Below, in pieces: positions 1 to 11,700 of a DNA stretch of 64,000 nt. A model generated the notes under the pieces. That model made no database searches and was not told where the DNA came from. It saw only the letters and a program-made list of their open reading frames with translations. The stretch's first letter is position 1, and every line of letters starts with the position of its first letter. A program made the translations under genes and the position numbers. The DNA is from a virus: positions 6,167-70,166 of IMG/VR virus record IMGVR_UViG_3300045988_154566; one strand, written 5' to 3'.

Positions 1-468
1 TAATGTTTTACACTCTGCGACGAAATACTTCGCATGATATTTTTCTACAATAGCCTTTACAACAGTGCTTTGCTTTTGTGTCTCACAATAGACATTGAAT
101 AATATATACTTCTCAATATCTATGTAGCTATATGGAATCCTTAAAGTGTCTAAAGTTTCCATTAACTCTTTAGCATAATGTGGCTTCACTGTCATTTCAA
201 CTTTCCATAACTTATCTTTTGTACTCTTTTCTTCAATCAGCTTTACAATGTAAACTCCGATAAGATTACACATAGCTATTATGAAAGCCTTTAAGAGAAG
301 CGGAAGGTCGCACATCATATATATTACTACAATAGTATATAGACCATAAGCTAATGCGTTGATTGCGGCGGCAGCCCCTTTTCCGCACTTGACAGTTATT
401 AAAGACTTAGCTGTCTGAATGATAACATTTACAATGTTAAGGATAATAAATAAAACTAATAAATTCAT
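1..468 (-). CDS. partial membrane protein running off the window start; hydrophobic N-terminus followed by a DUF2179/YitT-C-terminal-like domain
   Basis: Manual reverse translation from ATG at 466-468: MNLLVLFIILNIVNV...VKPHYAKELMETLDTLRIPYSYIDIEKY. No stop codon before position 1. Confidence 0.3.
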   Translation of the reverse strand, partial: MNLLVLFIILNIVNVIIQTAKSLITVKCGKGAAAAINALAYGLYTIVVIYMMCDLPLLLKAFIIAMCNLIGVYIVKLIEEKSTKDKLWKVEMTVKPHYAKELMETLDTLRIPYSYIDIEKYILFNVYCETQKQSTVVKAIVEKYHAKYFVAECKTL

Positions 469-485
469 AATTAATACCTCTTTTC

Positions 486-692
486 TTAATATTCTTTTAC
501 TTCTCTTACTAAATCAACTGGTTCAGGTGGCACATCTGCTTCTGTAAGGTCTAACCAACAATGTCGTTCAAGCCATCTCAAAAGAACTAACTGTTCTCCT
601 GTTATGTGTAAATATGTTGGCAGATTATCTTCATCATCATAATTGCCCTCAAGGTCTAATTTCTTAATACTTACATCATATTCATCTTTCAT
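486..692 (-). CDS. hypothetical small acidic protein (early region)
   Basis: ORF track lists 486-698 with a TTG start. ATG at 692 is preceded by a GAGGT ribosome-binding site. Confidence 0.45.
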   Translation of the reverse strand: MKDEYDVSIKKLDLEGNYDDEDNLPTYLHITGEQLVLLRWLERHCWLDLTEADVPPEPVDLVREVKEY

Positions 693-772
693 AATCAATA
701 CCTCATTTCTATTTTATGCTCTTGTTAAGGATACTTGTTTTCAATCTCATTTGTTATCTGTTCCCTTGAACA

Positions 773-806
773 ATTATAATTATAACAGATTATAAGCAAA
801 TGTCAA
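773..806 (-). promoter_or_regulatory. leftward sigma70-like promoter (TTGACA-16-TATAAT) for gene 486-692
   Basis: Reverse complement of tgtcaa at 801-806 and of attata at 779-784. Conserved leader GATAACAAATGAGATTG lies at 742-758 on the minus strand. Confidence 0.45.
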
Positions 807-850
807 GTGGTTTTGGGAAAATAAAAAAATTTTTTATTTTGATTTTTCTC

Positions 851-925
851 TTGACAAAAATGCCAAAATGTGATATAATATCAAAATACCGGCGGAGCCG
901 GACGCCCACAGGGCGGTCTTTTTTG
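851..925 (+). promoter_or_regulatory. rightward consensus promoter cassette: TTGACA-17-TATAAT, conserved start-site hairpin CCGGCGGAGCCGG, then hairpin plus T-tract
   Basis: TTGACA at 851-856, TATAAT at 874-879, hairpin at 889-901, CGCCCacagGGCG followed by TCTTTTTT at 903-925. The same cassette recurs at 2396 and 3783. Confidence 0.55.
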
Positions 926-933
926 AGCATAAA

Positions 934-965
934 AAGCTGATGACTATTAGTTTAGTCATCAGCTT
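934..965. terminator. bidirectional hairpin terminator (AAGCTGATGACTA-ttagtt-TAGTCATCAGCTT)
   Basis: Perfect 13-bp inverted repeat. A/T tracts on both sides. Lies just downstream of the minus-strand gene 970-1335. Confidence 0.5.
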
Positions 966-969
966 ACAG

Positions 970-1335
970 CTACTTTTTCTTTCTATGTTTTATCAGCGAT
1001 AGCGAGTATTCATTCTCGCCTATGTTAAAGGTTAATTCTTTCTGCGGATTAGCTGTTTGGACATTACTAATTTTGCCATTCAGTGCCATTCCCTCAAGTA
1101 AGGTTTTTAAACACTCGATAAAATCAACTTTTTCATCATCGAGTTTTACTTCTCGTGGCTTCCGCGGTTTCTTTTCAGCTTCCGCACCCTTAACATAATT
1201 CTTTATTCCCTTAGCTTTGATTTCCATTTCCGCCATTTCCATAGCTTCTTCTTTTGTGACTGGCTCTCCGTCTGCTTCACATTCCTTGAAAATCTTTAAA
1301 GCTAACTTCTCTAAGGCTTCTTTTTTACTATCCAT
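970..1335 (-). CDS. hypothetical K/E-rich small protein
   Basis: ATG start with AAAGAGG ribosome-binding site. Confidence 0.5.
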   Translation of the reverse strand: MDSKKEALEKLALKIFKECEADGEPVTKEEAMEMAEMEIKAKGIKNYVKGAEAEKKPRKPREVKLDDEKVDFIECLKTLLEGMALNGKISNVQTANPQKELTFNIGENEYSLSLIKHRKKK

Positions 1336-1391
1336 GCCCTATACCTCTTTCTTTTAAATTGGGCGGTGTATTTCAACCGCCCATCCGCAGA

Positions 1392-1769
1392 TTAGACAAG
1401 TGAGAAGATTGCCTTGCCCTTTTCCTCTTCTCTCTTTGCAGTGCCATTGGCAACCATAATCTTGAGAAGTGCAACTACTTTCTGATTAGAAAGCGCCTGA
1501 ACCGCTTCATCAGCAGGGAAGTCTTTCATAGCCTTGAGCATAATCTGAGTAGAAGTACCCTTGAAACCGTCAAGGACAACCTTGAGCTTCTCAACCAGTG
1601 CTTCATTAGCCTTAGCTTTCTTATCAGAACCAGCCCCAGCCTTAGCTTTCTTCTTCTCAAGGAGTTCCTTTTCGTGCATAAGATATGTCTTGTACATCTC
1701 ATTATCCTGAATAAATTCCTCATTTAACATAGCCTCGATAACCTGTAACTTTGTAATCTTCTTTTCCAT
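1392..1769 (-). CDS. hypothetical K/E-rich small protein
   Basis: ATG start with GAGGT ribosome-binding site. Hairpin GGGCGGT...ACCGCCC lies downstream at 1347-1370. Confidence 0.5.
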   Translation of the reverse strand: MEKKITKLQVIEAMLNEEFIQDNEMYKTYLMHEKELLEKKKAKAGAGSDKKAKANEALVEKLKVVLDGFKGTSTQIMLKAMKDFPADEAVQALSNQKVVALLKIMVANGTAKREEEKGKAIFSLV

Positions 1770-1881
1770 AATGCAATACCTCGCTTTATTATAATATTTG
1801 AAGCTGATTTTTATTTTTTAATGTGGTCGATTGATGGCTTCCTTTCCTTTCCACATTTATATGATAGCACATTTTATTGCG

Positions 1882-2172
1882 CTAGTCAAGCATAAATAAT
1901 GTCATTCCGGCTATTTCCTTTTCTACCACTTCTAAAGTATCTAAATGAATAGTGGCTCTGACTATCTTCCAACAGCCAGTTTCAAACTTGTTGTGTTCAT
2001 GGCGGCGTGGTAGTCTCTCTGCGGCATGGACTGCACTCTGACAATCTTCAAATACACCATCTATAACATAAGCAACTTGCGTTCCCATGCAATCTAAGTA
2101 TCTCATTACTTTTAAGACATACTTAGTCTCTGTTTTTCTTGGTACATGCTTAGTCTCTGTTCCCATAACCAT
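1882..2172 (-). CDS. hypothetical protein (Cys/His-containing)
   Basis: ATG start. Leftward promoter TTGACA-17-TATAAT lies about 2185-2215, with a poly(A) tract upstream on the minus strand. Confidence 0.45.
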   Translation of the reverse strand: MVMGTETKHVPRKTETKYVLKVMRYLDCMGTQVAYVIDGVFEDCQSAVHAAERLPRRHEHNKFETGCWKIVRATIHLDTLEVVEKEIAGMTLFMLD

Positions 2173-2226
2173 TACTTCCTTTCTATACCCTTATTATATC
2201 ACTTAGGTATCTATTTGTCAAGCATT

Positions 2227-2261
<35 letters not shown>

Positions 2262-2330
2262 TTCGGGTTGTTTAGCAATCTCATTTGTTATCTCCCTTAC
2301 AAGTATCATTATAGCAGACTGCCCCAAAAT

Positions 2331-2446
2331 TGCAATAGTCAAAACTGCACAAGATTTCGGGAAAATTTTTGTGCAACTTTATATCATTTTTCTCTTGACA
2401 AAAAGCGCTAAGTATGCTACAATAGTGAAATACCGGCTTTGCCGGA
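2331..2446 (+). promoter_or_regulatory. divergent promoter cassette 2: operator palindrome TGCACAA-N15-TTGTGCA, rightward TTGACA-17-TACAAT, start-site hairpin CCGGCtttGCCGG
   Basis: Palindrome at 2346-2375. TTGACA at 2396-2401, TACAAT at 2419-2424, hairpin at 2434-2446. Leftward TTGCAA-16-TATAAT with conserved leader at 2276-2292. Confidence 0.5.
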
Positions 2447-2473
2447 CGCGCGCTGCGCGGTCTTTCTGTGACA

Positions 2474-2498
2474 AAAAAAGTAGGCGTTTCCGCCTACT
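2474..2498 (-). terminator. hairpin GTAGGCGtttcCGCCTAC with T-tract on the minus strand; terminator for gene 2494-2679
   Basis: Inverted repeat flanked by A7 on the plus strand, which is T7 on the minus strand. Confidence 0.45.
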
Positions 2499-2679
2499 CT
2501 TCATCTGTATATTCAATATTGAATATTGTTCTGCTTGTATTATCTAGTGCAAGTACATCATCAAAAATTTCATTAAAGCTATATGAATCTAACTCTGCGT
2601 CACTAGAAATTATGTTACAAAATTTTTTAATTACATCATGCTCCGCCTTTGACATTTTAACAGTTCTTACAATATTCAT
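2494..2679 (-). CDS. hypothetical small protein
   Basis: ORF track. Compact tandem arrangement with neighbouring minus-strand genes. Confidence 0.35.
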   Translation of the reverse strand: MNIVRTVKMSKAEHDVIKKFCNIISSDAELDSYSFNEIFDDVLALDNTSRTIFNIEYTDEE

Positions 2680-2683
2680 AATA

Positions 2684-2920
2684 TTATTCCTCCATTTTTC
2701 TTATTTTACATTTAGTATATCCATATTTTTTTAAAACTGTACCTTTCCAGTAGCGTTTCGCGCATATCTTTTCAATTCCTCTCTGTATGATTGGCGCTCT
2801 TTTTTCTTTATCCTTAGATAAATCCATACTAGCGTCCTCTTGTTCATAAGAGACTATACTGGCGACTGGTCTATATTGACCAGTCGTACAAAATAATGTA
2901 ACTTGATAATTTACTAACAT
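2684..2920 (-). CDS. hypothetical small basic protein
   Basis: ORF track. Abuts neighbouring genes. Confidence 0.35.
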   Translation of the reverse strand: MLVNYQVTLFCTTGQYRPVASIVSYEQEDASMDLSKDKEKRAPIIQRGIEKICAKRYWKGTVLKKYGYTKCKIRKMEE

Positions 2921-2922
2921 GA

Positions 2923-3117
2923 TTATTCCTCCTCATACTTATACTTTGTTATAACTTTTTCGTCCTCTTCAGTAACTAGCATACAGTTGCTACCTATTAA
3001 CTCTGCTAACTCACAAGCCTTATGATATACTTCATATGCGGCTTCCATACCAGTTACTCTTGCTATTATTGTTATTCCTAAAATAACCCAATATGTCATA
3101 ATATCAACTCCTTTCAT
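2923..3117 (-). CDS. hypothetical small protein with C-terminal hydrophobic segment
   Basis: ORF track. Confidence 0.35.
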   Translation of the reverse strand: MKGVDIMTYWVILGITIIARVTGMEAAYEVYHKACELAELIGSNCMLVTEEDEKVITKYKYEEE

Positions 3118-3129
3118 TTTAAAATAATA

Positions 3130-3477
3130 TTACAAATATTTATTACATGCCCTTTCAATATCTTGTCTTATTTTTTCTCTATACTTCTTAGGAATAGCTT
3201 TAAAGAACTTTTCCTTATCCTCCGTGGATAATTGCGTATAAAAATATTTAGTCTCATTAGCTGAAATATGGAAAGGATTTACTCCTCTTTTCAGCATAAA
3301 AAGATATGTTCTACTAAAAACAATAGTCTCACTAAATCTTGAGAAAACTGCTTTTCCAAAAGTGAGGATAATTAACTGACCATCTCTCAATTCATAAGTA
3401 TTAACTTTCAATTGAATAAAATCCATAACAATAGCTCCAACAACAAATGCAATAATAATCTTAATCATAAATATCAA
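3130..3477 (-). CDS. hypothetical membrane protein (N-terminal transmembrane segment)
   Basis: ORF track. Hydrophobic N-terminus IIIAFVVGAIVM. Confidence 0.4.
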   Translation of the reverse strand: MIFMIKIIIAFVVGAIVMDFIQLKVNTYELRDGQLIILTFGKAVFSRFSETIVFSRTYLFMLKRGVNPFHISANETKYFYTQLSTEDKEKFFKAIPKKYREKIRQDIERACNKYL

Positions 3478-3489
3478 CTCCTTTCAACT

Positions 3490-3652
3490 AATAATAATCA
3501 TAATAAGATGAACAACTACAATAGCTAGGCTGGCTATTCTTCCATACATAAGTTAAACTATCATCTTCTTCACACTGACTGATTGCCTCTGCCTCTGTCT
3601 CAACTTCCCAACCACAATCTGAACTATCTTCTCTGTTATACACTATCCACAT
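3490..3652 (-). CDS. hypothetical 54-aa acidic Cys-containing protein (below the ORF-track length cutoff)
   Basis: Manual translation: MWIVYNREDSSDCGWEVETEAEAISQCEEDDSLTYVWKNSQPSYCSCSSYYDYY. AAAGGAG ribosome-binding site 7 nt upstream. Confidence 0.4.
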
Positions 3653-3733
3653 AATATCAATCTCCTTTCAAGTGGGTACTTCTTACTTCTCTATTATAAT
3701 ACCATGTCAAGGGTAGAATTGCAAGTGACAAAA

Positions 3734-3833
3734 TGCACAATATTTTGGGATAATGTTTGTGCAATATGTCAACTTTTTTCCCTTGACAAAAATCCTAAAA
3801 GGTGGTATAATAGGCAAATTCCGGCGGGGCCGG
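3734..3833 (+). promoter_or_regulatory. promoter cassette 3: operator palindrome, TTGACA-17-TATAAT, start-site hairpin CCGGCgggGCCGG
   Basis: Palindrome at 3734-3763. TTGACA at 3783-3788, TATAAT at 3806-3811, hairpin at 3821-3833. Confidence 0.5.
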
Positions 3834-3850
3834 ACGTGCTCCGCCCGCCC

Positions 3851-4110
3851 AGTTAGTCTAGTCTAACTTAGGTTAGTTTGAAGTAACAAGTGTTTTATAA
3901 GCCTAACAATAGTTAGCTTAATCTAATTATAGTTAGTTTGAATTAACAAGGATTAGCTTAATCTAACTAGGGTTATAAAATCCTAACTAGAGTTAGTTTG
4001 AATTAACAACTGTTAAAAATTGCTAACTTTACTTTTATAAAACGAACTTTGATTCGTCTTCTCTAACTTTAATTTTATACAGCTAACTACAGATAATTAC
4101 AACTAATTAA
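3851..4110. repeat. iteron array 1: about 9 copies of the 14-bp palindrome CTAAC-N4-GTTAG interleaved with 3 copies of GTTTGAA(T/G)TAACAAG
   Basis: Examples: ctaacttaggttag, ctaacaatagttag, ctaattatagttag, ctaactagagttag. Degenerate copies continue to about 4110. Confidence 0.8.
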
Positions 4111-4140
4111 AATTAGAGAACGCAAATCAAATTGGGGAGG

Positions 4141-4166
4141 GTTGCCGCTACTTGGCAACCCAAACC
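4141..4166. other. 8-bp-stem hairpin GGGTTGCC-N7-GGCAACCC overlapping the 3' end of gene 4148-4429
   Basis: Inverted repeat seen in sequence. Confidence 0.5.
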
Positions 4167-4429
4167 TTTAATAATATGTCGTCATATTTAGTCGACTGGT
4201 CATCAACATCAAATAACATCTTGACATTAGTTCCCTCTGCGATATCACAACCATCATACTCCCAGATATCGCCCGCCCTATCAGCAATCCGCACAAATCC
4301 GTTGTCATTGCTGATTACTCTTCCTTCTCTTGTACAGTGACCCTCAAGATATATTGCGCCTAAGAAAAGCGTTCCTAAAACTAAACCCAGGGCTACTCTC
4401 TTAACTATTCTCTTACTATTGTTTTTCAT
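4148..4429 (-). CDS. hypothetical secreted or membrane-anchored small protein
   Basis: ATG at 4429 with GAGGT ribosome-binding site. The ORF track extends to a GTG at 4444. N-terminal hydrophobic signal-like segment. Confidence 0.45.
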   Translation of the reverse strand: MKNNSKRIVKRVALGLVLGTLFLGAIYLEGHCTREGRVISNDNGFVRIADRAGDIWEYDGCDIAEGTNVKMLFDVDDQSTKYDDILLKVWVAK

Positions 4430-4493
4430 AATTTTAAACCTCACTTTTCATTTTTATTTTTATATGCGGGCTTGGCTTCCCAAGCCCTAATCA

Positions 4494-4802
4494 TTAACAG
4501 TATATTAAGGACATGTCTGCCCACTTCAATATTGATATCTGTGCGCACTGTCTACCCAGTGCTAATGCGTCTCTTTTTGTAGACACTCTGTGGCTCTTGT
4601 CTACAAAGTAAACTCCATTTTCTAACCATAAGCCGCAATTTCCACCGTATGCCCTAACGGCTTTAATTGCCTCTTCGGGAGTTGTAACCATTACTCCCTC
4701 TGTAGCTACTTGATAACCACTCTTGTATGTGATTATCTTACCATTCTTGAGGGTAAGTCCTCCACACTCTGTTATCTTTCTTATTGTCCTAATGTTTATC
4801 AT
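4494..4802 (-). CDS. hypothetical protein
   Basis: ATG start with GAGGT ribosome-binding site. Confidence 0.45.
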   Translation of the reverse strand: MINIRTIRKITECGGLTLKNGKIITYKSGYQVATEGVMVTTPEEAIKAVRAYGGNCGLWLENGVYFVDKSHRVSTKRDALALGRQCAQISILKWADMSLIYC

Positions 4803-4840
4803 ATTATTACCTCGCTTTCTTTTTCTTGGGAGGTCCCGGC

Positions 4841-5113
4841 TTAATAGCCGAGACTTATTAATTTGCTAATGTAAGAGTTTAAAACTGCAATTAACTGTTT
4901 TTCAGTCATTCCATTTTTAAACTGCGGTGCGCTTGCTGTGACTGGTGGAAGCTCATGCCCCTCAACAACTACTGAAAAGCTACATTCAGGGTCTTTATTG
5001 ATAATATTGAAAACTGCCTTAATATGTAAGTTTTCCTTATAAAGTCCACTGTAGCCCTCTTTAGCTACAAGTACTAAATTTAATCCTTTACTTCCAAAAT
5101 TTAACTTTTTCAT
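4841..5113 (-). CDS. hypothetical protein
   Basis: ATG at 5113 with GAGG ribosome-binding site. The ORF track extends to a GTG at 5176. Confidence 0.4.
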   Translation of the reverse strand: MKKLNFGSKGLNLVLVAKEGYSGLYKENLHIKAVFNIINKDPECSFSVVVEGHELPPVTASAPQFKNGMTEKQLIAVLNSYISKLISLGY

Positions 5114-5437
5114 AATAACCTCTTTTCTGTCTCTCTCTTGAAAGACTATCAATTTTATTTTACGGTTTTCGTTCACCGCACCATTATAATATCATACCCA
5201 GTTTTTAATGTCAACACTTTTTTCAAAAATTTTTAAAATTTTTTTCATGCCCTATTTTCAAGGCTTTTCACGCACCCAAACACATGCAGCAGACAGTTAT
5301 TTGACTACATTTTTAGTCATCAATAGTGACGATGTGTCTACTTTTGTAGTCAGATAGTCACTCATTATGGGATATGATTAGTCTTGTAGTCGCACCCAAT
5401 GTCGATTTGAAAAGTTTAATTAAGTAGTCAAATAGGC

Positions 5438-5470
5438 AAAATGCGGTGCGCTTTATGGGAGGAAGCGCGC
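5438..5470 (+). promoter_or_regulatory. conserved module AAAATGCGGTGCGCTTTATGGGAGGAAGCGC, copy 1: hairpin GCGCTT/AAGCGC with GGGAGG in the loop and a tiny ORF MGGSAP
   Basis: Near-identical copy at 6895-6926. Both are preceded by AT-rich TGACTA-containing sequence with TTGAAA-18-(-10-like) spacing. Confidence 0.45.
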
Positions 5471-5487
5471 CGTTCAAAATAACTAAC

Positions 5488-5610
5488 CAAAGTTAGTCAA
5501 GCTTAACAATAGTTAGACTAAACTAATTAGATTTCGGGAAGACTAACTTGAGTTAGTTTGAATTAACAAGCATTAAGCTTGACTAACTTAAGTTAGTTTC
5601 CTTAAACTGG
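5488..5610. repeat. iteron array 2: about 5 copies of CTAAC-N4-GTTAG plus one GTTTGAATTAACAAG
   Basis: Copies: ctaaccaaagttag, ttaacaatagttag, ctaacttgagttag, ctaacttaagttag. Followed by hairpin GTGCGGA...TCCGCAC at 5617-5639. Confidence 0.8.
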
Positions 5611-5794
5611 GTGAGTGCGGATTAGCAGTTTCCGCACTTATCTAATAAACTAGACATAAAGCCAATAATGAACTCCATAAGACTAAGAAGTTCGTCATCA
5701 GATATGACTATGTGTGTAAGTACAAAGTCAATCTGACTATTGGCTTCTGTGACAGTGGAGCATTGCTCCACCATCACTATTGCTTCTATAAAGG

Positions 5795-6271
5795 TCATGC
5801 TATCACCTCCCCTGTTTTCTCATTCACCAAGTCACATCTAAGACCTAGTATCTTGCAGGCTTTAGCAGTATTGTAGAACACTGCCTGTGCCTTGCCATAA
5901 CTCTCAATCTTTGTAAAGATTGGAGTATTGCCATTATAAATTCCATAAGATTCAGCTTCTTTTGTCTGAATCTCATAGTCGCCCACACAATGAGCGACAT
6001 GGTCGAGAATGAAGTTTAACACTTCACCCTCAAACTCCAACTCTGGAGCTGAATTGAGGCAATCAACCTCATATTCCCAAGGGAACCATTCTCCCTCAGT
6101 GAATATTGCCCCTCTTAAAAGGAGTTGACAGAGGTGCGGAGCTGCTGAATACTCCTTGACCTCCTCAAGACGGATAACAGCCTCTCCGTCTGTGCAGAGG
6201 TAAGTTCCTTCCTCTGCTTTACCATAGCCTGCCAGTGGCATGTCCACTGGCATTTTAAAGCCTCTAATCAT
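5795..6271 (-). CDS. hypothetical acidic protein
   Basis: ATG start with GGAGAGGAAGG ribosome-binding site. Confidence 0.5.
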   Translation of the reverse strand: MIRGFKMPVDMPLAGYGKAEEGTYLCTDGEAVIRLEEVKEYSAAPHLCQLLLRGAIFTEGEWFPWEYEVDCLNSAPELEFEGEVLNFILDHVAHCVGDYEIQTKEAESYGIYNGNTPIFTKIESYGKAQAVFYNTAKACKILGLRCDLVNEKTGEVIA

Positions 6272-6319
6272 ATTTTATTCCTTCCTCTCCGTCAAGCCGA
6301 TGAGCCAGCTAAATCTATA

Positions 6320-6583
6320 TTAGACTGCTGGAATACTTCCACAGCCCCAAGGACCACTATAGTCCCTGTCAAAAATGTGAGCCTGTGTCCTATTAAGGAA
6401 CACACCTACACAATTGTAATCAACAGTTGTGTAGTCATCTTCGATATAATCGAAGATTTCTCCACGCAATTTGTTTAAAGTTGCGCGAAGCTCACCCTTA
6501 CCATAAGGGGCTTTGAACTCCACAATGGAAGTTCTTTCTATGAGAAGGTTCTCCTTCTCCATTATTATGATTACCTGATTCAT
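6320..6583 (-). CDS. hypothetical protein
   Basis: ORF track. Tandem with 5795-6271. Confidence 0.4.
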   Translation of the reverse strand: MNQVIIIMEKENLLIERTSIVEFKAPYGKGELRATLNKLRGEIFDYIEDDYTTVDYNCVGVFLNRTQAHIFDRDYSGPWGCGSIPAV

Positions 6584-6695
6584 ATCTTACCTCTTTCTGC
6601 CCTTGTCTTTCAAGGACTGTTTATTTTATTTTGTCGCCATTGCCTTACGACACCATTATAATACACCCACCGCACACTCATTACAATATGCAAAA

Positions 6696-6725
6696 TGCAC
6701 AAAGTTTGACAGATATTTTTGTGCA
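6696..6725. promoter_or_regulatory. operator palindrome TGCACAA-N15-TTGTGCA, third copy, overlapping a TTGACA -35 element
   Basis: Same inverted repeat as at 2346-2375 and 3734-3763. Confidence 0.5.
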
Positions 6726-6867
6726 ATTTGTACAAAAGAAAATACACCAGTTGGAAGCACCGAACATTTGTTCACCGTTTTGTTCAGCTCCGAGAATAGT
6801 TTAGTTTTTTAGACGCATGAGTTGTGGGAAAATTTATTTGACTATTTGATTAGACTTTTAGAATTTG

Positions 6868-6926
6868 AAATGTTTAAATGACTAGAAATATAGTAAAATG
6901 CGGTGCGCTTTATGGGAGGAAGCGCT
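6868..6926 (+). promoter_or_regulatory. rightward promoter-like TTGAAA-18-TATAGT followed by conserved module copy 2 (GCGGTGCGCTTTATGGGAGGAAGCGC)
   Basis: TTGAAA at 6868-6873, TATAGT at 6892-6897. Module at 6895-6926 is identical to 5438-5470 over about 30 nt. Confidence 0.4.
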
Positions 6927-7171
6927 CCGACGATTTGAAAATGTACGGGACTATACTCTTGATGTGTACTGATTATTTTTTGATAAAACTACAGACCATA
7001 CGCAAGAGGTAGCCAGCAGTTTAAAATAAAAAAAATTTTTCTCTTTTACCCGGGGATATATTATGGGAAAATGAAAAATTAATTCGATGAAATCATATTT
7101 AGCTGGTACATTCACACACCCCAAATTTTTTGAAATTTAAAATACGAAACACCCCAAATTAAAATACGAGA

Positions 7172-7477
7172 TTAATTCCGAACAACTCTCCCATGTTTCC
7201 CCGTTTGTTTATATGCCATAAATAAGTTATTTAATTTAATATTATCTCCATCTCCTAAATTAATTAATAGGAAATCACAATTTTTTATAATATCTGCGGT
7301 TTCCGCATTTTTTATGTAGCGAGTCGGCGCACCAACCGATTCAGCCCACTTAGCGGCAATACTATCTTTATTTGTTACCAACATATAAAATAAATAGCAT
7401 TGACTTTCCGCAATTAACTTCTGCATTTCCGCATCAATATCTTCAATTTTATTAAAACCAATTGCCGCGACTATCAT
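7172..7477 (-). CDS. hypothetical protein (possible Rossmann-like fold)
   Basis: ORF track. MIVAAIGFNK N-terminus and LINLGDGDN motif. Confidence 0.35.
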   Translation of the reverse strand: MIVAAIGFNKIEDIDAEMQKLIAESQCYLFYMLVTNKDSIAAKWAESVGAPTRYIKNAETADIIKNCDFLLINLGDGDNIKLNNLFMAYKQTGKHGRVVRN

Positions 7478-7543
7478 TCTATCACTCCTTTATAATAATT
7501 ATATCAAAAAATTTTTTTCTTTTCAAATTATCTACTTTTGTCC

Positions 7544-7572
7544 TTGACTTATGAAAATTTTTTTGGTATAAT
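7544..7572 (+). promoter_or_regulatory. rightward sigma70-like promoter TTGACT-17-TATAAT at the head of the structural operon
   Basis: TTGACT at 7544-7549, TATAAT at 7567-7572. AGGAGAG ribosome-binding site before the 7603 ATG. Confidence 0.5.
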
Positions 7573-7602
7573 TATTATAAGAATAAGAATAAGGAGAGAC
7601 TA

Positions 7603-8685
7603 ATGGAGCAACAAAAAGAAAATAGTGATTATATTAAAATGGATTTTAGTATTGAATCACCTGCAGAAAGAGTAGAAAAAGTAAAAGAAATTATTGCCAA
7701 CACTCCTCCTGAAAGATTAACTCATTCTTACTTAGAAAAATTAAGTAACTACATAATTTTTGCTATGGATAAAGAAGAAAGAAAACAAAATAAAATCTTA
7801 ACAGATAACCATATGCAAACAGTAAATGTAAGAGAGACATCTTTTGAAGGACTTGTAGGCAGATTAGAAAATGGCGAAGATGGCATATATAATATGATTG
7901 CGAATGACAAAAATATTATATTTAAACCAAAATTTGAAATCACAGATGCGGATGTCGCGGAAATGCCTGAGTTAAGGGAACTCCGCAAGGGTATAGAAGA
8001 ATTAAAGGAACAATTAAAAACAGCAAGAGGCAAAAAAGCATATCAAATAAAAAAACATATCATAGAAGCAAGTCAAGACCAGTATGTAATAAAAAATTCT
8101 TATAAAAAACCTATCTATTGTATAAATCCCCTTAAAAGTGTAGCAAAATTAGATTTAGATGAACATGTAACTGTTGATGAAAATGATGAAATTCATACTG
8201 ATGGTATTTTAAGTTTACTCGTGCCGCAACATATTTGCGCGGTATTGTGTAATTATGAAAAATTAAGAATCCAAACTTGGAATAAACTAAATAGTGATGT
8301 TAAATGGTTTCTCGTAGATTTAGACAATCTAATAGATGAGACCTTAAAATATGATTATCCAATATATTATGATATTACTCTTTTAAAGATTCGCGGCTAT
8401 CAGAATGTAGATATCCAAGAATACTTAGAAATAAAATATAAAGTAAATCATTCTGTTGAATATATATCTTCTCTTTGGCGGAATAAGATACCAAAATTAC
8501 TCGCGGAAAAGGCACAAGAGAAATGGTTAGTTTGGTATTATACTAACAAAGCAGAAGGAAAATGGAAAAAATGTTCAAGATGTGGGCAAATTAAGTTAGC
8601 TAGTAATAGATTCTTTTCAAAAAATAATACAAGCAAAGACCATTTTTACAGTATATGTAAGTGTTGTAGAAATAAAAGAAAATAA
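7603..8685 (+). CDS. hypothetical protein with C-terminal Cys4 zinc-ribbon-like motif
   Basis: C-terminus: CSRCGQIKLASNRFFSKNNTSKDHFYSICKCCRNK. Confidence 0.5.
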   Translation: MEQQKENSDYIKMDFSIESPAERVEKVKEIIANTPPERLTHSYLEKLSNYIIFAMDKEERKQNKILTDNHMQTVNVRETSFEGLVGRLENGEDGIYNMIANDKNIIFKPKFEITDADVAEMPELRELRKGIEELKEQLKTARGKKAYQIKKHIIEASQDQYVIKNSYKKPIYCINPLKSVAKLDLDEHVTVDENDEIHTDGILSLLVPQHICAVLCNYEKLRIQTWNKLNSDVKWFLVDLDNLIDETLKYDYPIYYDITLLKIRGYQNVDIQEYLEIKYKVNHSVEYISSLWRNKIPKLLAEKAQEKWLVWYYTNKAEGKWKKCSRCGQIKLASNRFFSKNNTSKDHFYSICKCCRNKRK

Positions 8686-8703: not shown

Positions 8704-9996
8704 ATGGGCGCACAAGAAGTAGAGCCAGGGAAATATTACTGTGAAAAATGTCGTAAGACAATGGGCGCAGTACAATTTTTTACTTATAAAGATGGTAGTA
8801 AAAGCGAATTATGTAAACAATGCTTAACTATGCATATTAATAACTGGGAGCCAGAAACATTCAAATGGCTATTGGAAAAATTTGATGTTCCATATCTCCC
8901 TTGGGAATGGGATAAGATTAGAGACAAACAATATGCGAAAGACCCCTATAAAATGACTGGAAATAGTGTTTTTGGTCGTTATCTCGCGAAAATGAAATTA
9001 AATCAGTGGAATAAATATCATTGGTCTGATACTGAGCGGCTGGTGCGGGAAGCAGATGAACTTGCTAATAGGGCGGCTGCGGCAAAAGAAGAAGATGAAA
9101 AACTTGAGAATATGCGGAAGCTCGCGGATGAAGGTGCAATTAGTGAATCTCAATATCAAACATACGCGGAAACGCAGATTGAGAAACCTATACCTAAGCC
9201 AGAGAGTTTACCCAACCCATATGAGAATGGACAAGCTAATCCGGCATATCGGGCTGCCGCGCGAGCATCTGTTTATCCTGTAAATAATAATCCATTTGAA
9301 GAAATTGATTTACCAGATGTTGGAAATGATTTAACACAAGAGGATAAGATTTATTTAGCTACAAAATGGGGTAGATTTTATTCTGCGGAAGAGTGGGTAA
9401 CTTTAGAAAAGAAATATAATGATTTTACAAATTCATTTGATATACATTCTGCGGCAACTATAGATACTTTAATTTTTATTTGTAAGACTTCATTAAAAAT
9501 GAATCAGGCTCTTGATAGCGGAGACATTGAATCTTATCAAAAATTATCAAGAGTTTATGATGCACAAATGAAAGCTGCGAAGTTTACGGAAGCACAGAAT
9601 AAAGAAGATAAAAGTAATGACTTTGATGCTATTGGTTGCATAGTAGAGTTTTGTGAAAAAGAGGGCGGATTTATTCCAAGATTTTATACAGAAACTCCGC
9701 AGGATAAGGTTGATGTTGTTATTGCAGATGAAAAATCTTATGTTAAGTCTCTTGTTGATGGTGATTCTGGATTAGCGCAACAGATAGAGCAGTATCTTAA
9801 GAAGCGTGAAATCCTTGAAGAACAAAAGAGAAATAAGGAAAAAGCAAAATTAGAAGGTAAAGAGCAGATTGAATTAACAGATAAAGATATTCAAGAGTAT
9901 ATAGAGCATCAACAGAAAGAAAAAGAAAAAGATAATATCGCGGAAGATGATGATGAAGATAATTTTGGAAGTCTCTTTAGTATGGAGGTTGAGTAA
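8704..9996 (+). CDS. hypothetical protein with N-terminal Cys4 zinc ribbon (same motif as 7603-8685) and acidic C-terminus
   Basis: N-terminus: YYCEKCRKTMGAVQFFTYKDGSKSELCKQCL. Its position immediately upstream of the terminase makes a small-terminase or DNA-recognition role possible. Confidence 0.5.
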   Translation: MGAQEVEPGKYYCEKCRKTMGAVQFFTYKDGSKSELCKQCLTMHINNWEPETFKWLLEKFDVPYLPWEWDKIRDKQYAKDPYKMTGNSVFGRYLAKMKLNQWNKYHWSDTERLVREADELANRAAAAKEEDEKLENMRKLADEGAISESQYQTYAETQIEKPIPKPESLPNPYENGQANPAYRAAARASVYPVNNNPFEEIDLPDVGNDLTQEDKIYLATKWGRFYSAEEWVTLEKKYNDFTNSFDIHSAATIDTLIFICKTSLKMNQALDSGDIESYQKLSRVYDAQMKAAKFTEAQNKEDKSNDFDAIGCIVEFCEKEGGFIPRFYTETPQDKVDVVIADEKSYVKSLVDGDSGLAQQIEQYLKKREILEEQKRNKEKAKLEGKEQIELTDKDIQEYIEHQQKEKEKDNIAEDDDEDNFGSLFSMEVE

Positions 9997-10619
9997 TGAG
10001 TTTACAAAGTATACTAGACCTTTCCGCGGAAAGAGATAATAAAAAAGTAGGTTGTTCAGAAGAAAGATTAAGAGAATGCCTTCCCGAATTGCGGAAGGCT
10101 ATTGCTTTTTATCGTGAATATCCAGATATCTTTGTTGATGATATTAAAGGACCAGATTGTAACTTCCAATTTTATTTTTATCAGAGAGTTTTCTTAAGGT
10201 CGGTTATGAGACATCGTCGAGTCTATGCAGTTTTTCCACGTGCATATAGTAAATCATTCTTGACTATGATGGCTTTAATGTTGCGTGCAATTCTTTATCC
10301 AGGTGCGGCATTATTTGTAACTACAGGTGGAAAAGAGCAAGCTGCAAGTATTACAATCGCAAAGATTGAAGAAATTTGTCGGCTTATTCCCGCGCTAAAT
10401 AAAGAAATTAATTGGGATAGAGGAGCCTCAAAAAAATCAAAAGATAATGTAAAATATATCTTTAAGAATGGCTCTACTATTGATATTCTTGCGGCAAGGG
10501 AGTCATCCAGAGGTCAACGTCGTACAGGTGGAGCTATGGAAGAGTGTGTACTTATTGATGGAACTGCTTTGAACGAAATAATTATTCCTAGACTTATAAG
10601 GTTGTGGGACCTAATTTAG
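9996..10619 (+). CDS. terminase large subunit, N-terminal ATPase part (exon 1 or N-terminal fragment)
   Basis: Walker-A-like VFPRAYSKSF. Walker-B-like ECVLIDG near the end. Start overlaps the upstream stop (TAATGA). Confidence 0.6.
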   Translation: MSLQSILDLSAERDNKKVGCSEERLRECLPELRKAIAFYREYPDIFVDDIKGPDCNFQFYFYQRVFLRSVMRHRRVYAVFPRAYSKSFLTMMALMLRAILYPGAALFVTTGGKEQAASITIAKIEEICRLIPALNKEINWDRGASKKSKDNVKYIFKNGSTIDILAARESSRGQRRTGGAMEECVLIDGTALNEIIIPRLIRLWDLI

Positions 10620-11700
10620 TAATAAATTAGTGCATGAACGGTGTGAACCCATTGGTTATGGGGTGTAGTATAAGGATATACTGCTAACGGTTAGGCTATA
10701 AATAAAGTGAGACCGTGCTAAGTTTATATTTGTTATAAAAAAGTGTAGAGACTATCCAGAGGAGAAATACGCCTGGTTAGGGCTGAGAATAACCACAGCT
10801 CGAAGCGCACCGCAACTTTTTAAAATTTTTGGTCAAAAATATAAAATAAAATTGTTCATTTTTTTAATTTTATTGAGGGTATGTATATCCCGGGATAAAA
10901 CTGAGTTATAGAAAGGAATTAAAAAAATGATTCAATGGAAAAAAATTTTTATAGATGAAAAAGAGACTAATTACAGTGTTTCTAGCACTGGAGAGGTTAG
11001 AAATGATATAACTAAAAAAATATTATCACAAAGAATTCAACAAGGGTATAAACATGTAACTTTATCATTACCAAATAAGATAAAATCATGTCGAGTTCAT
11101 AGACTTGTAGCACAAGCCTTTATTAAGAATCCTGAAAACAAGCCCTATGTGAATCATATTGATTGTGATAGAAGTAACAATAATGTTGAAAATTTAGAAT
11201 GGGTAACGCCAAAAGAGAATTCTCAAAAAGCGGTTCTAGAAGGTAAATTTTTAAATAGTTCCCATTTAAGACCTGTTGTTCAATATAATTTAGCAGGGAA
11301 AAAGATTAGAACTTTTGAAAGTGCCACTGAGGCAGCAAGACAGTTAAATTTACAACAATCTAAAATAACAGAATGTTGTAGAAGAAATAGAAAAAGAACC
11401 GGAGAATATCAATGGAGATATGCAGATGAAGAATGTCTTCAATTAGAACCTATTCAAAAACAAAATCACCCTGGAGTGAAAGTTGCAAGATGCAACGATG
11501 ATTTAGTTATATTAGAAATTTATAATTCTTATAAAGAAGCAGCAAATGCAATAAAAGGTAGTTATCAAGCTATTGCTGCAATATGTAATGGAACAACTAT
11601 AAATATTCATCATAAAGGCTGGAGATGGAAAAAAGTTGATGATATAGTCCAATCAAAAAAAGATTGACAACTAATGTTGATAGACGACTCGCAGATGGTA
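10600..11700 (+). mobile_element. putative group I intron, or a free-standing homing-endonuclease insertion, interrupting the terminase large-subunit gene and carrying an HNH ORF
   Basis: About 300 nt of structured non-coding sequence at 10620-10926 with GAGACC/GAGACTA-type elements. The HNH ORF has its own ribosome-binding site. The terminase ATPase motif III (ITTAG) resumes downstream in the same frame as exon 1. Boundaries are approximate. Confidence 0.45.
10927..11667 (+). CDS. HNH homing endonuclease (NUMOD4 N-terminus, HNH_3 core, NUMOD1-like C-terminal DNA-binding repeats)
   Basis: Motifs WKKIFIDE...YSVSSTGEVRN and HRLVAQAF...NHIDCDRSNNNVENLEWVTPKEN. Confidence 0.8.
   Translation: MIQWKKIFIDEKETNYSVSSTGEVRNDITKKILSQRIQQGYKHVTLSLPNKIKSCRVHRLVAQAFIKNPENKPYVNHIDCDRSNNNVENLEWVTPKENSQKAVLEGKFLNSSHLRPVVQYNLAGKKIRTFESATEAARQLNLQQSKITECCRRNRKRTGEYQWRYADEECLQLEPIQKQNHPGVKVARCNDDLVILEIYNSYKEAANAIKGSYQAIAAICNGTTINIHHKGWRWKKVDDIVQSKKD

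What the first reader, a model, noticed from the sequence alone, without database searches (positions are those of the whole stretch)
5438..6926. Second conserved promoter/leader module with hairpin, in-loop Shine-Dalgarno and micro-ORF
The 30-nt sequence AAAATGCGGTGCGCTTTATGGGAGGAAGCGC occurs twice, at 5438-5470 and 6895-6926. Each copy sits downstream of AT-rich TGACTA-containing DNA with promoter-like TTGAAA-18-TA..T spacing. The sequence folds as GCGCTT-loop-AAGCGC with GGGAGG in the loop. It opens a tiny ORF, MGGSAP..., of 8 aa in one copy and 13 aa in the other. Possible roles are a leader peptide or riboregulator, or a recognition site for a phage RNA-binding protein.
Basis: seen in the sequence. 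Interest (0 to 1): 0.5.

Follow-up and report, generated by a model that had tools for sequence, protein, structure and literature searches.

The report
Hairpin-capped orphan promoters in phage
The repeated 31-base sequence is a GC-rich hairpin placed at the first transcribed bases of a gene-less promoter that points against the phage's early genes. It is one local version of a promoter-plus-hairpin unit found dozens of times across a family of large uncultured phages of Gram-positive bacteria, and it is not a leader peptide or a translated micro-ORF.

Summary
The repeat is real. An exact 31-mer occurs at 5438-5468 and 6895-6925, with 0 expected by chance. It folds into a 10-12 bp GC-rich hairpin.

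The window is a roughly 145-150 kb phage of an SD-using, Firmicutes-like host. All genes around the repeat lie on the opposite (minus) strand, and no plus-strand gene follows either copy. The micro-ORF (MGGSAP...) exists, but its shared part is just the repeat. It has no SD and is absent from relatives' hairpins.

In 28 related phage loci, near-consensus sigma-A promoters split into two classes. Minus-strand promoters run straight into an SD and a gene (median 5' MFE -0.6 kcal/mol). Plus-strand "orphan" promoters have no ORF and are followed within 4-10 nt by a GC hairpin whose stem sequence varies but stays paired (median -16.6; p = 2e-35).

Copy 2 (TTGAAA-18-TATAGT plus hairpin) fits this class. 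Copy 1 keeps the hairpin, including one compensatory G-C to A-T change, but has a degenerate -10.

My best reading, inferred and not shown, is a hairpin at the very 5' end that protects an untranslated, antisense-oriented transcript. The duplicated intergenic cassettes may also act as PeSL-like linkers for gene swapping. Rivals are a weak minus-strand terminator, a promoter-proximal attenuator and a DNA palindrome.

Interest is moderate.

The parts
5438..5473 (+). Copy 1 of the repeat: AAAAT followed by the GC hairpin GCGGTGCGCTTT-ATGGGAG-GAAGCGCGCCGT
   Evidence: Exact 31-mer. RNA fold -20.2 kcal/mol. Present in L002, L037, L049 and L051, with one compensatory G-C to A-T change. Second-best hit of covariance model R1 in the window.
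6895..6929 (+). Copy 2 of the repeat: the same hairpin, with a T-T mismatch at stem position 4
   Evidence: Present in 6 genomes, with only position 4/4' and one loop base varying. Fourth-best hit of R1.
6865..6894 (+). Sigma-A-type promoter-like site TTGAAA-18-TATAGT, ending 6 nt before the copy-2 stem
   Evidence: Promoter scan, 10 of 12. Both hexamers are invariant in 6 genomes. Three-genome identity is 0.93-0.97.
5405..5437 (+). Degenerate paralogue of that promoter upstream of copy 1. TTGAAA is kept but there is no acceptable -10 at 16-18 nt.
   Evidence: 75% identity to 6863-6898. Alignment A3. Not called by the promoter scan.
5481..5598 (.). Long imperfect inverted repeat directly after copy 1. 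It holds three ACTAACnnnnGTTAGT palindromes and six nTAAy motifs phased every 20 nt.
   Evidence: fold z -9.0. The same motif type forms a 13-unit phased array at 3852-4110.
5606..5646 (+). 14-16 bp hairpin overlapping the stop of the - strand gene 5622-5798. In the window it carries three G.U pairs that exist only on the + strand.
   Evidence: Relatives have A-U or G-C at those three pairs.
5186..5214 (-). mRNA promoter (TTGACA-17-TATTAT with TG) of the next - strand operon. It belongs to the same intergenic cassette as copy 1.
   Evidence: Its paralogue is at 6658-6686.
6658..6686 (-). mRNA promoter (TTGTAA-17-TATTAT) for genes 6583-5622. It is back to back with the copy-2 promoter.
6692..6727 (.). 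Inverted repeat AAAATGCACAA-N15-TTTGTGCAAT between the divergent promoters of the copy-2 cassette. It is a candidate operator.
   Evidence: Read. The same pair occurs at 3730-3766. Three-genome identity is 0.93-0.97. TTTGTGCAAT recurs upstream of orphan promoters in L018 and L004.
5473..6894 (-). Cassette flanked by the two copies: three small - strand ORFan genes (5622-5798, 5795-6271, 6320-6583) with no family hits
   Evidence: The segment 5947-6580 or 6313-6580 is replaced in L001, L049, L051 and L053, with a fixed breakpoint at 6580-6584.
3783..3850 (+). Sister module M0: a perfect promoter TTGACA-17-TGGTATAAT, then AGGCAAATT, then a GC hairpin. It fires into the 20-nt phased array.
   Evidence: Best R1 hit in the window (E 0.13).
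851..925 (+). Sister module A: a 12-of-12 promoter, two mini hairpins (CCGGCggaGCCGG and CGCCCacaGGGCG) and a T tract. The predicted RNA is about 40 nt.
2395..2469 (+). Sister module B, with the same design as module A

Best explanation
The two 31-mers are the stem-loops of two paralogous copies of one intergenic regulatory cassette in the early region of a large phage of a Firmicutes-like host.

Each cassette carries a minus-strand mRNA promoter for the next block of small early genes. Back to back with it sits a plus-strand orphan promoter that has no gene. The hairpin begins 4-10 nt after the -10 element of the orphan promoter, that is, at the predicted first transcribed bases.

This design (a sigma-A-type promoter, then a short A/T-rich stretch, then a GC-rich hairpin of variable sequence) is shared by dozens of orphan promoters across the phage family. 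Those promoters point against the early genes and towards the late genes.

I infer that the hairpin forms in the nascent plus-strand RNA at its extreme 5' end. There it would shield an untranslated transcript from 5'-end-dependent decay. Such a transcript has no ribosome bound near its 5' end, and in Firmicutes the relevant pathway is RppH with RNase J1.

In this lineage the purine-rich loop GGGAGG could add a second, SD-like stabiliser without any translation. Copy 2 looks active. Copy 1 keeps a selected hairpin but has a degenerate -10.

Shown: the architecture, its strand bias, its positional constraint and its structural conservation. Inferred: that the promoters fire, that the RNA rather than the DNA is the working form, and that the effect is stabilisation.

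The duplicated cassettes also bracket a swappable three-gene ORFan block, in the manner of PeSL linkers.
For: - The repeat and hairpin are real.
- All local genes are on the - strand, and nothing codes downstream on the + strand.
- Strict extended -10 promoters upstream of the sigma-like gene were counted in the related loci (32 loci, 28). Of 94 + strand promoters, 44 have a hairpin of at least 7 bp starting 3-16 nt after the -10, and only 13 have an SD plus start. Of 237 - strand promoters, 8 have such a hairpin and 186 have an SD plus start (Fisher p 1.6e-20).
- A threshold-free comparison of the first 40 transcribed nt gives the same split. For + promoters the median MFE is -16.6 kcal/mol and GC is 61% (n = 79). 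For - promoters the median is -0.6 and GC is 33% (n = 190). Mann-Whitney p is 2.5e-35.
- The same holds inside the window. The five orphan modules fold at -15 to -20 kcal/mol. The mRNA promoters, including the + strand promoter of the sigma-like gene, fold at 0 to -7.7.
- The spacer from the -10 to the stem is 4-10 nt, with a mode of 8.
- Stems differ in sequence but stay paired. In 11 hairpins from distant relatives, 93.9% of cells are paired, 7 of 9 pairs show changes on both sides, and 0 of 500 shuffles reach the observed covariation score.
- A covariance model built only from those distant relatives ranks M0, copy 1 and copy 2 as hits 1, 2 and 4 of the whole 64 kb, all on the + strand.
- L003 carries the near-identical 5' arm GCGGTGCGC behind a consensus promoter.
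- Within the lineage, variation in 11 copies from 6 genomes falls on stem positions 3-5, including one compensatory G-C to A-T change.
- Loops are purine-rich and T-poor on the promoter strand (185 purines to 116 pyrimidines; T is 8%), against an opposite background skew.
- Among - strand mRNA promoters, 5' structure appears only when the SD is far from the 5' end. The fractions are 0%, 14% and 23% for an SD within 35 nt, at 36-220 nt, or absent (p 1e-4).
- The copy-2 promoter and hairpin are more conserved than the sequence just downstream.
Against: - No transcription data exist. Transcription start sites are predicted only from promoter geometry.
- G.U against A.C asymmetry in the stems does not favour the promoter strand (6 against 10).
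- In this lineage one copy-1 allele pairs better on the + strand and the other on the - strand.
- The same loop motif (CGACCA / TGGTCG) occurs in both orientations relative to the promoter.
- Copy 1 lacks a usable -10, yet its hairpin is conserved. The hairpin may therefore work independently of a start site.
- Sister modules A and B end in a terminator after about 40 nt, so there is little RNA to stabilise. The act of transcription, rather than the product, may be what matters.
- Only 2 of 79 orphan units have a + strand terminator within 100 nt. The extent and purpose of the RNAs are therefore unknown.
- Most long-leader mRNAs have no 5' hairpin.
- The hairpin sets were selected for pairing, so the covariation counts are partly circular.
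Confidence: 0.42

Rival explanations
1. The hairpin works on the minus (coding) strand. It would be a weak intrinsic terminator, insulator or 3'-end stabiliser that closes one early operon before the next minus-strand promoter.
For: - The genes are on the - strand. Each copy is the last GC-rich structure between a - strand gene block and the next - strand promoter, about 215-230 nt further on.
- On the - strand the stem is followed by CAUUUUGCCUAUUU or CAUUUUACUAUAUUU.
- No canonical - strand terminator is called anywhere in 4000-8000, so something else must end these units or they read through.
- In this lineage the sequence before the stem is AAAATG rather than the family's AAATTT. That creates a U4 run on the - strand.
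- The L037 allele of copy 1 pairs perfectly only on the - strand.
- PeSL stem-loops of T4-type phages are terminators sited next to promoters (PMC2839356).
Against: - The - strand fold is weaker (-12 to -13 kcal/mol) and has an A.C mismatch in the window allele.
- The loop is 9 nt and only 4 U follow a 2-nt gap. The terminator scan does not call it.
- In relatives the GC hairpin sits after a separate, canonical - strand terminator and is followed by GAAATTTCC on that strand. As a family, therefore, it is not the terminator.
- Its distance is fixed relative to the + promoter, not to the - strand gene ends.
- Some hairpins lie between two face-to-face promoters with no gene end nearby.
Confidence: 0.2
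2. The unit is a promoter-proximal attenuator or pause element. RNA polymerase loads constitutively at strong orphan promoters but is halted or terminated within about 40 nt. A phage factor later lets it run on towards the late genes, following the logic of lambda PR'-tR'/Q or HK022 put. Alternatively, polymerase occupancy itself is the function.
For: - Nearly all orphan promoters point towards the late-gene block that begins with the sigma-like gene.
- Sister modules A and B in the window, and L003 294/1048, have a hairpin plus T tract right after a perfect promoter. That predicts RNAs of roughly 40-55 nt.
- The promoters are near-perfect: -35, TG, -10 and a GGA discriminator.
- Conserved motifs (AATTTCGGGA, TTTGTGCAAT) lie just upstream and could be binding sites for a factor.
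- The sequence downstream of the hairpin is poorly conserved.
Against: - The two copies of this finding, like most family members, have no U tract after the hairpin on the + strand. The tails are A-rich.
- No antiterminator has been identified.
- Hairpin sequence and length vary widely, unlike put or nut sites.
- The sigma-like gene has its own strong promoter at 7544-7572.
Confidence: 0.13
3. The GC-rich palindrome acts at the DNA level. It could be a protein-binding or cruciform site, or simply a conserved linker that promotes recombination between regulatory cassettes.
For: - Most stems are perfect Watson-Crick palindromes with no strand asymmetry in their wobble pairs.
- Loop motifs occur in both orientations.
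- The copies bracket a gene block that is swapped between relatives, with a recurrent breakpoint at 6580-6584 at a cassette edge.
- This parallels PeSL-mediated shuffling, where a role for the stem-loop as a protein target was proposed (PMC2839356).
- Copy 1 is conserved without a good promoter.
Against: - Stem sequences differ from copy to copy across the family, so no single sequence-specific protein fits.
- The observed swap breakpoints are not at the 31-mers themselves.
- The tight spacing to the -10 element and the A-rich, T-poor loops on the promoter strand point to a transcript.
Confidence: 0.1
4. This is the first reader's model: a leader with an in-loop Shine-Dalgarno sequence that opens a translated micro-ORF, acting as a leader peptide or riboregulator of a downstream gene.
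For: The ATG and the ORFs of 13 and 8 codons exist. GGGAGG is a strong SD-like sequence.
Against: - GGGAGG lies after the ATG, not before it, and no SD precedes the ATG.
- The common peptide is encoded by the repeat itself, and the tails diverge at once.
- There is no + strand gene to regulate.
- The longer + strand ORF after copy 2 shows 8 non-synonymous changes to 1 synonymous change against L037, and it loses its stop codon.
- Loops of the family's other hairpins mostly lack both ATG and SD.
Confidence: 0.03

Closest known systems
PeSLs (promoter-early stem-loops) of T4-type phages (Arbiol et al. 2010, PMC2839356; Comeau et al. 2014, PMC4122927)
   Same: Both are repeated composite cassettes of a strong sigma-70-type promoter plus a GC-rich stem-loop. 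Both lie in intergenic DNA between small ORFan early genes. Their stem sequence differs between phage lineages. Both flank gene blocks that are swapped between close relatives.
   Different: - In PeSLs the stem-loop lies upstream of the promoter, in the same direction as the genes, and was shown to terminate transcription.
- Here the hairpin lies downstream of a promoter that points against the genes and has no ORF.
- The hosts and phages are unrelated (Gram-negative myoviruses against a Firmicutes-type phage).
- Recombination at the motifs has not been shown here.
5' stabilisers of Gram-positive RNAs: the aprE leader 5' stem-loop, the cryIIIA STAB-SD and the ermC leader (reviewed in PMC3997798)
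   Same: A stem-loop lies at or within a few nt of the 5' end. In this lineage there is also a strong SD-like sequence with no start codon at SD distance. The RNA is untranslated, and the host uses strong SDs.
   Different: - The known cases are leaders of mRNAs, whereas these units have no ORF.
- The SD-like GGGAGG sits inside a 7-9 nt loop, where 30S binding is doubtful.
- Neither stabilisation nor the start site has been measured.
Lambda OOP RNA and other convergent antisense RNAs or 'excludons' (OOP from my own knowledge; excludon concept in PMC7154746)
   Same: An orphan constitutive promoter is placed at the 3' end of an early gene and fires convergently into it.
   Different: OOP is a single 77-nt terminated RNA. 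Here there are several units per genome, most without a + strand terminator, and some (A and B) terminate before reaching the gene.
Lambda PR'-tR'/Q and HK022 put (promoter-proximal RNA elements that control elongation; from my own knowledge)
   Same: A strong promoter is followed at once by a structured RNA element, and the promoter is oriented towards the late genes.
   Different: There is no U tract after the hairpin in the two copies of this finding, no conserved sequence like put or qut, and no identified factor.
Conserved RNase III processing hairpins in the early RNAs of T7 and SP82 (from my own knowledge)
   Same: A repeated, conserved stem-loop lies between early genes of a large lytic phage.
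   Different: Those hairpins lie on the coding strand and have about 20 bp of duplex. This stem is 10-12 bp and is tied to an opposite-strand promoter.

Membership tests
Sigma-A (sigma-70-type) promoter | A -35 hexamer close to TTGACA and a -10 hexamer close to TATAAT (A at position 2, T at position 6), 16-18 nt apart | tested here: met
   Copy 2 has TTGAAA-18-TATAGT, 10 of 12, invariant in 6 genomes. Copy 1 does not meet it: its candidates are TCAAAT at 15 nt or TAGGCA at 20 nt, and the scan does not call it.
Family-wide orphan promoter plus proximal GC hairpin module (defined here) | A GC-rich hairpin starting 4-10 nt after the -10 element, with no SD or ORF downstream, pointing against the local early genes | tested here: met
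   Copy 2 meets all three criteria. A covariance model built from distant relatives ranks copy 1 and copy 2 second and fourth in 64 kb, but their individual E-values of 2.5 and 5.6 are not significant. Copy 1 fails the promoter criterion.
Intrinsic (rho-independent) terminator, minus strand | A GC-rich stem, a short loop (3-8 nt), and at least 5 T in the 8 nt that begin 0-2 nt after the stem | tested here: inconclusive
   The stem qualifies at 10 bp with one mismatch. The loop is 9 nt. The tail is CATTTTGC or CATTTTAC, with 4-5 T depending on offset. The scan does not call it. Fold energy is -12 to -13 kcal/mol.
Leader peptide / upstream-ORF attenuator | An SD and a start codon at proper spacing, a peptide conserved beyond the nucleotide repeat, and a regulated gene downstream on the same strand | tested here: not met
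   No SD lies before the ATG. The peptides diverge after MGGSAP. No + strand gene follows.
PeSL cassette | The order stem-loop, AT-rich region, -35, -10, SD, ATG, all in the direction of the genes, with the stem-loop terminating upstream transcription | tested here: not met
   The hairpin abuts a promoter on the opposite strand. On the gene strand it lies about 215-230 nt upstream of the next promoter. Terminator activity was not tested.
PeSL cassette | Repeated copies flank ORFan genes, and gene content between copies differs between close relatives | tested here: met
   Three ORFans with no family hits lie between the copies. The block 5947-6580 or 6313-6580 is replaced in L001, L049, L051 and L053.
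5' stabiliser (aprE leader / STAB-SD type) | The hairpin or SD-like element lies within a few nt of the mapped 5' end and lengthens RNA half-life | not testable with these tools
   Only the geometry is known: 6 nt lie between TATAGT and the stem, and the family spacer is 4-10 nt. There is no start-site or half-life data.
Any curated RNA family (Rfam 15) | A match at or above the family's gathering score | tested here: not met
   No matches in the whole window on either strand. No tRNA or tmRNA either.

The most novel reading that the evidence does not exclude
A whole family of large Firmicutes-type phages, including relatives of the 140-kb Enterococcus phages EF1 and VRE9, runs a dedicated non-coding transcription programme. 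Several near-perfect host-type promoters per genome, each capped by a GC hairpin, fire against the early genes and towards the late genes. Their purpose would lie in the act of transcription itself. Possibilities include shutting off early operons by collision or antisense RNA, activating the adjacent iteron-type origin (M0 and copy 1 fire straight into 20-nt phased CTAAC arrays), and pulling the genome into the cell as T7 does. The hairpin would be the common device that makes such gene-less transcripts viable.
Probability: 0.25. Interest if true: 0.7.

Novelty: new variant of a known kind. Interest (0 to 1): 0.45.

Why it matters
If the orphan promoters fire, this phage family devotes some of its strongest host-type promoters to RNAs that encode nothing and oppose its own early genes. 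That would be an unexplored layer of phage gene control.

It would also be a natural test of the rule that, in Gram-positive hosts, an RNA needs either a ribosome or a hairpin at its 5' end to survive. The hairpins would be ready-made, sequence-diverse 5' stabiliser parts for synthetic biology in Firmicutes.

The duplicated cassettes also extend the PeSL idea, in which regulatory cassettes act as linkers for gene shuffling, beyond T4-type phages.

For genome annotation, the result warns against calling micro-ORFs inside such hairpins.

Tried and rejected
- **Known RNA families and tRNAs:** an Rfam scan at gathering threshold over the whole window and a tRNA/tmRNA scan found nothing.
- **Cultured phage DNA:** megablast of 4800-7600 against INPHARED phages gave no match.
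- **Neighbouring proteins:** PHROGs and Pfam gave no hits for the seven small - strand proteins around the repeat.
- **Micro-ORF and leaderless ORF (MRCALWEE...):** rejected. There is no SD, the peptides diverge beyond the repeat, and the ORF is absent from family loops.
- **Small + strand ORF after copy 2 (MYGTILLMCTDYFLIKLQTIRKR):** it stays open in relatives, but shows 8 non-synonymous changes to 1 synonymous change, loses its stop in L037, and has no SD. I rejected it as coding and as a type I toxin.
- **Structured RNA downstream of copy 2:** the MFE z-score is only -1.55, and the predicted helices are not kept in L002 or L037.
- **Shared 3' hairpin between the copy-1 unit and 7295-7310:** a short chance match.
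- **Strand test by G.U against A.C counts:** not significant (6 against 10).
- **The 21-mer in other collections:** only close relatives carry it (L049, L051, L053). Hits in two Nannocystaceae MAGs and two other contigs are chance matches in GC-rich DNA.
- **RNA anti-CRISPR or solitary CRISPR repeat mimic:** considered and set aside, because the hairpins differ within one genome.
- **RNase III site:** set aside because the duplex is too short.
- **Full 25-sequence MAFFT alignment of hairpins:** it slipped register, so I built the model from 11 sequences that aligned without gaps.
- **Literature searches** for orphan or antisense promoters in such phages found nothing specific.
Full report
**1. 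The observation**

The sequence AAAATGCGGTGCGCTTTATGGGAGGAAGCGC is 31 nt long. It occurs exactly twice, at 5438-5468 and 6895-6925 on the + strand. No shuffle produced a match, even with three mismatches allowed.

The similarity extends beyond the 31-mer. It runs to 35 nt with one mismatch. About 36 nt upstream are 75% identical with one indel.

It has 10-12 bp, written (G)CGGnGCGCTT(T)/(G)AAGCGCnCCG, with a variable fourth pair. As + strand RNA it folds at -20.2 and -15.5 kcal/mol. As - strand RNA it folds at -13.2 and -11.9.

The two micro-ORFs exist as described. The promoter-like spacing TTGAAA-18-TATAGT holds for copy 2 only. Copy 1 has no acceptable -10 at 16-18 nt.

**2. Context**

The window is a phage. 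Supporting features:
- a portal protein, and a split large terminase interrupted by an HNH-like ORF;
- proteins of 3081 and 1812 aa;
- NrdD.

Gene starts carry strong GGAGG-type SDs, so the host is Firmicutes-like. The left 7.5 kb holds small genes on the - strand. From 7603 onward the genes are on the + strand, beginning with a protein that matches a PHROG annotated as sigma factor.

Every gene near the repeat is on the - strand: 5622-5798, 5795-6271, 6320-6583 and 7172-7477. None of them has a family hit. No + strand gene follows either copy.

The two copies belong to paralogous intergenic cassettes, 5120-5480 and 6590-6937. These cassettes also share the - strand mRNA promoter and 5' UTR. 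A third cassette, 3640-3850, shares the same features.

**3. Close relatives**

Five further genomes or contigs at 85-94% identity carry the element (L001/L002, L037/L047, L049, L051, L053).

In the 11 copies, the AAAAT prefix, the top of the stem and the loop are invariant apart from one loop base. Variation falls on stem positions 3-5. It includes one compensatory G-C to A-T change in copy 1 and free variation of the mismatched fourth pair.

Wobble evidence for strand is contradictory. The window allele of copy 1 pairs better on the + strand, and the L037 allele pairs better on the - strand.

The copy-2 promoter and hairpin are among the best-conserved non-coding stretches (0.93-0.97). The 50 nt after the hairpin are the least conserved (0.63-0.70).

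The exact hairpin is confined to this lineage. Other database hits are chance matches.

**4. The wider family**

I used the sigma-like protein to fetch 45 related loci at 50-98% protein identity. A script then found about 60 instances of one design:

TTGACA-17/18-TG(G/A)TATAAT, then a short A/T-rich stretch (often GGAAATTT), then a GC-rich hairpin of 7-16 bp.

With strict promoter criteria the two strands behave very differently (Fisher p 1.6e-20):

| Strand | Promoters | With hairpin | With SD plus start |
|---|---|---|---|
| + | 94 | 44 | 13 |
| - | 237 | 8 | 186 |

A threshold-free comparison of the first 40 transcribed nt agrees (p 2.5e-35):

| Strand | n | Median MFE (kcal/mol) | GC |
|---|---|---|---|
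| + | 79 | -16.6 | 61% |
| - | 190 | -0.6 | 33% |

Further properties of the design:
- The stem begins 4-10 nt after the -10 element.
- Stems differ in sequence but stay paired. In 11 hairpins, 93.9% of cells are paired and 7 of 9 pairs change on both sides. This set was chosen for pairing, so the count is partly circular.
- A covariance model built only from distant relatives ranks M0 (3818-3850), copy 1 and copy 2 as hits 1, 2 and 4 of the 64-kb window, all on the + strand. Individual E-values are weak, at 0.13, 2.5 and 5.6.
- L003 has almost the same 5' arm (GCGGTGCGC) behind a consensus promoter.
- The cultured Enterococcus phage EF1 shares the genome layout and has two similar + strand units.

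The window itself has five orphan units, listed in the parts. All fold at -15 to -20 kcal/mol. The mRNA promoters, including the + strand promoter of the sigma-like gene, fold at 0 to -7.7.

**5. What the orphan units do**

The facts are these:
- The orphan units point against the early genes and towards the late genes.
- Of 79 units, 23 sit within 100 nt of the intrinsic terminator of a - strand operon. Only 2 of 79 have a + strand terminator within 100 nt.
- Some are face-to-face promoter pairs that share one hairpin (L004 670-763).
- Units A and B end in a hairpin plus T tract after about 40 nt.
- M0 and copy 1 fire directly into arrays of nTAAC motifs phased every 20 nt.

The hairpin marks transcripts that lack a ribosome-binding site near the 5' end. 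Among - strand mRNA promoters, 5' structure is never seen when the SD is within 35 nt. It appears in 14-23% of promoters when the SD is farther away or absent. Loops are purine-rich and T-poor on the promoter strand, against the local composition skew.

[quoted passage not shown] I therefore commit to a 5'-terminal protective hairpin on an untranslated + strand transcript as the most likely role (confidence about 0.4). In this lineage the GGGAGG loop may add an SD-like stabiliser.

Three steps remain inferred: that the promoters fire, that the RNA is the working form, and that the effect is stabilisation.

**6. Rivals**

- **A weak - strand terminator or insulator** fits the gene strand and the CAUUUU tail. 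It also fits the absence of canonical - strand terminators nearby. Against it, relatives place a separate canonical terminator before the hairpin.
- **A promoter-proximal attenuator awaiting a phage factor** fits units A and B and the orientation towards the late genes. The two copies of this finding, however, have no U tract.
- **A DNA-level palindrome** fits the absence of strand asymmetry and the conservation of copy 1 without a promoter.
- **The leader-peptide model** is contradicted by the context.

**7. Comparison with known systems**

The closest described system is the PeSL of T4-type phages. PeSLs are repeated cassettes of a strong promoter plus a stem-loop between ORFan early genes, and they mediate modular shuffling (PMC2839356, PMC4122927).

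The parallel here is gene swapping. The gene block between the copies is replaced in relatives, with a recurrent breakpoint at 6580-6584, at the edge of the cassette.

The differences are the order and the orientation. PeSLs read stem-loop then promoter along the genes. This unit reads promoter then hairpin against the genes, so it is not a PeSL member.

Functionally it resembles 5' stabilisers (the aprE leader, STAB-SD) and convergent antisense promoters (lambda OOP). Membership cannot be tested without RNA data.

**8. Verdict**

The repeat is real and is part of a conserved regulatory module. The micro-ORF and the leader reading are wrong.

The family-wide split between gene-driving promoters and hairpin-capped orphan promoters appears not to have been described. 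My two literature searches found nothing specific. I rate it a new variant of a known kind, of moderate interest. Its mechanism awaits 5'-end mapping.

Noticed in passing
window 3852-4110 and 5483-5600; also L008 ~7909-8140, L022 ~7150-7420, L021 ~7811, L029 ~5218, L032 ~6885, L035 ~5304: Arrays of CTAAC/GTTAG (nTAAC) motifs are phased every 19-20 nt. The window has 13 units after module M0 and 6 units after copy 1. The arrays are conserved in distant relatives, at 9-19 motifs per 240 nt against 0.4-0.6 expected. In L022 and L008 they sit next to extremely AT-rich DNA. This looks like an iteron-type replication origin or another protein-binding array.
   Followed up: partly
window 851-925 and 2395-2469 (also L002 1230, 4172, 5373; L037 1844, 5007): A second type of orphan unit has a 12-of-12 or 11-of-12 promoter followed by two mini hairpins with an invariant first stem (CCGGCnnnGCCGG-A-CGnnCnnnGnnCG) and a T tract. 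It predicts RNAs of about 40 nt that stop just before the terminator of the facing - strand gene. M0 (3783-3850) is the same type without the T tract.
   Followed up: partly
window 3730-3766 and 6692-6727: The inverted repeat AAAATGCACAA-N15/16-TTTGTGCAAT lies between the back-to-back promoters of two cassettes. Three-genome identity is 0.93-0.97. TTTGTGCAAT and AATTTCGGGA recur upstream of orphan promoters in L018 and L004, so this is a candidate operator. In the copy-1 cassette it is replaced by a cluster of TAGTC/GACTA motifs (5298-5430).
   Followed up: partly
window 7049-7138: A non-coding block between copy 2 and the end of gene 7172-7477 is 100% identical in the window, L002 and L037, although its flanks vary. 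The adjacent 7139-7183 is the most variable stretch and holds expanding ACACCCCAAATT / AATTTAAAATACGA direct repeats.
   Followed up: no
window 2225-2260: An uninterrupted run of about 36 T (94% matches) lies in the intergenic DNA next to the 12-of-12 - strand promoter at 2221-2193.
   Followed up: no
L004 670-763; L021 2128-2224; L041 ~3145-3240; L005 and L046 equivalents: Pairs of perfect consensus promoters face each other with only one shared GC hairpin between their -10 elements. Their predicted start sites are about 35-40 bp apart, so two polymerases could not occupy both at once.
   Followed up: partly
window 7603-8685: The first + strand gene matches a PHROG annotated as sigma factor (E 2e-49) but no Pfam family. 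It ends in a Cys-rich segment with weak HNH / endonuclease VII PHROG hits. Its homologues lie in 140-kb Enterococcus phages (about 40% identity), Brevibacillus phage Sundance and others.
   Followed up: partly
window 9996-12815: The large terminase appears to be split into 9996-10619 and 11664-12815 by an inserted ORF (10927-11667). That ORF looks like a homing endonuclease of the HNH/AP2 type, judged by eye from its sequence. The same region in Enterococcus phages EF1 and VRE9_2 carries annotated homing endonucleases.
   Followed up: no
window 7295-7317 (+): A + strand terminator-like site (TGCGGtttCCGCA followed by TTTTTTAT) lies inside the - strand gene 7172-7477. It is about 400 nt downstream of the copy-2 promoter and could end a + strand antisense RNA, or it could be chance.
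   Followed up: no
window 5606-5646: The hairpin overlapping the stop of gene 5622-5798 differs from L002 and L037 by three transitions. All three keep pairing only as G.U on the + strand. This hints that a + strand RNA spanning copy 1 to 5646 (about 210 nt, fold z -9) is under selection. The chance of 3 out of 3 is about 1 in 8.
   Followed up: partly
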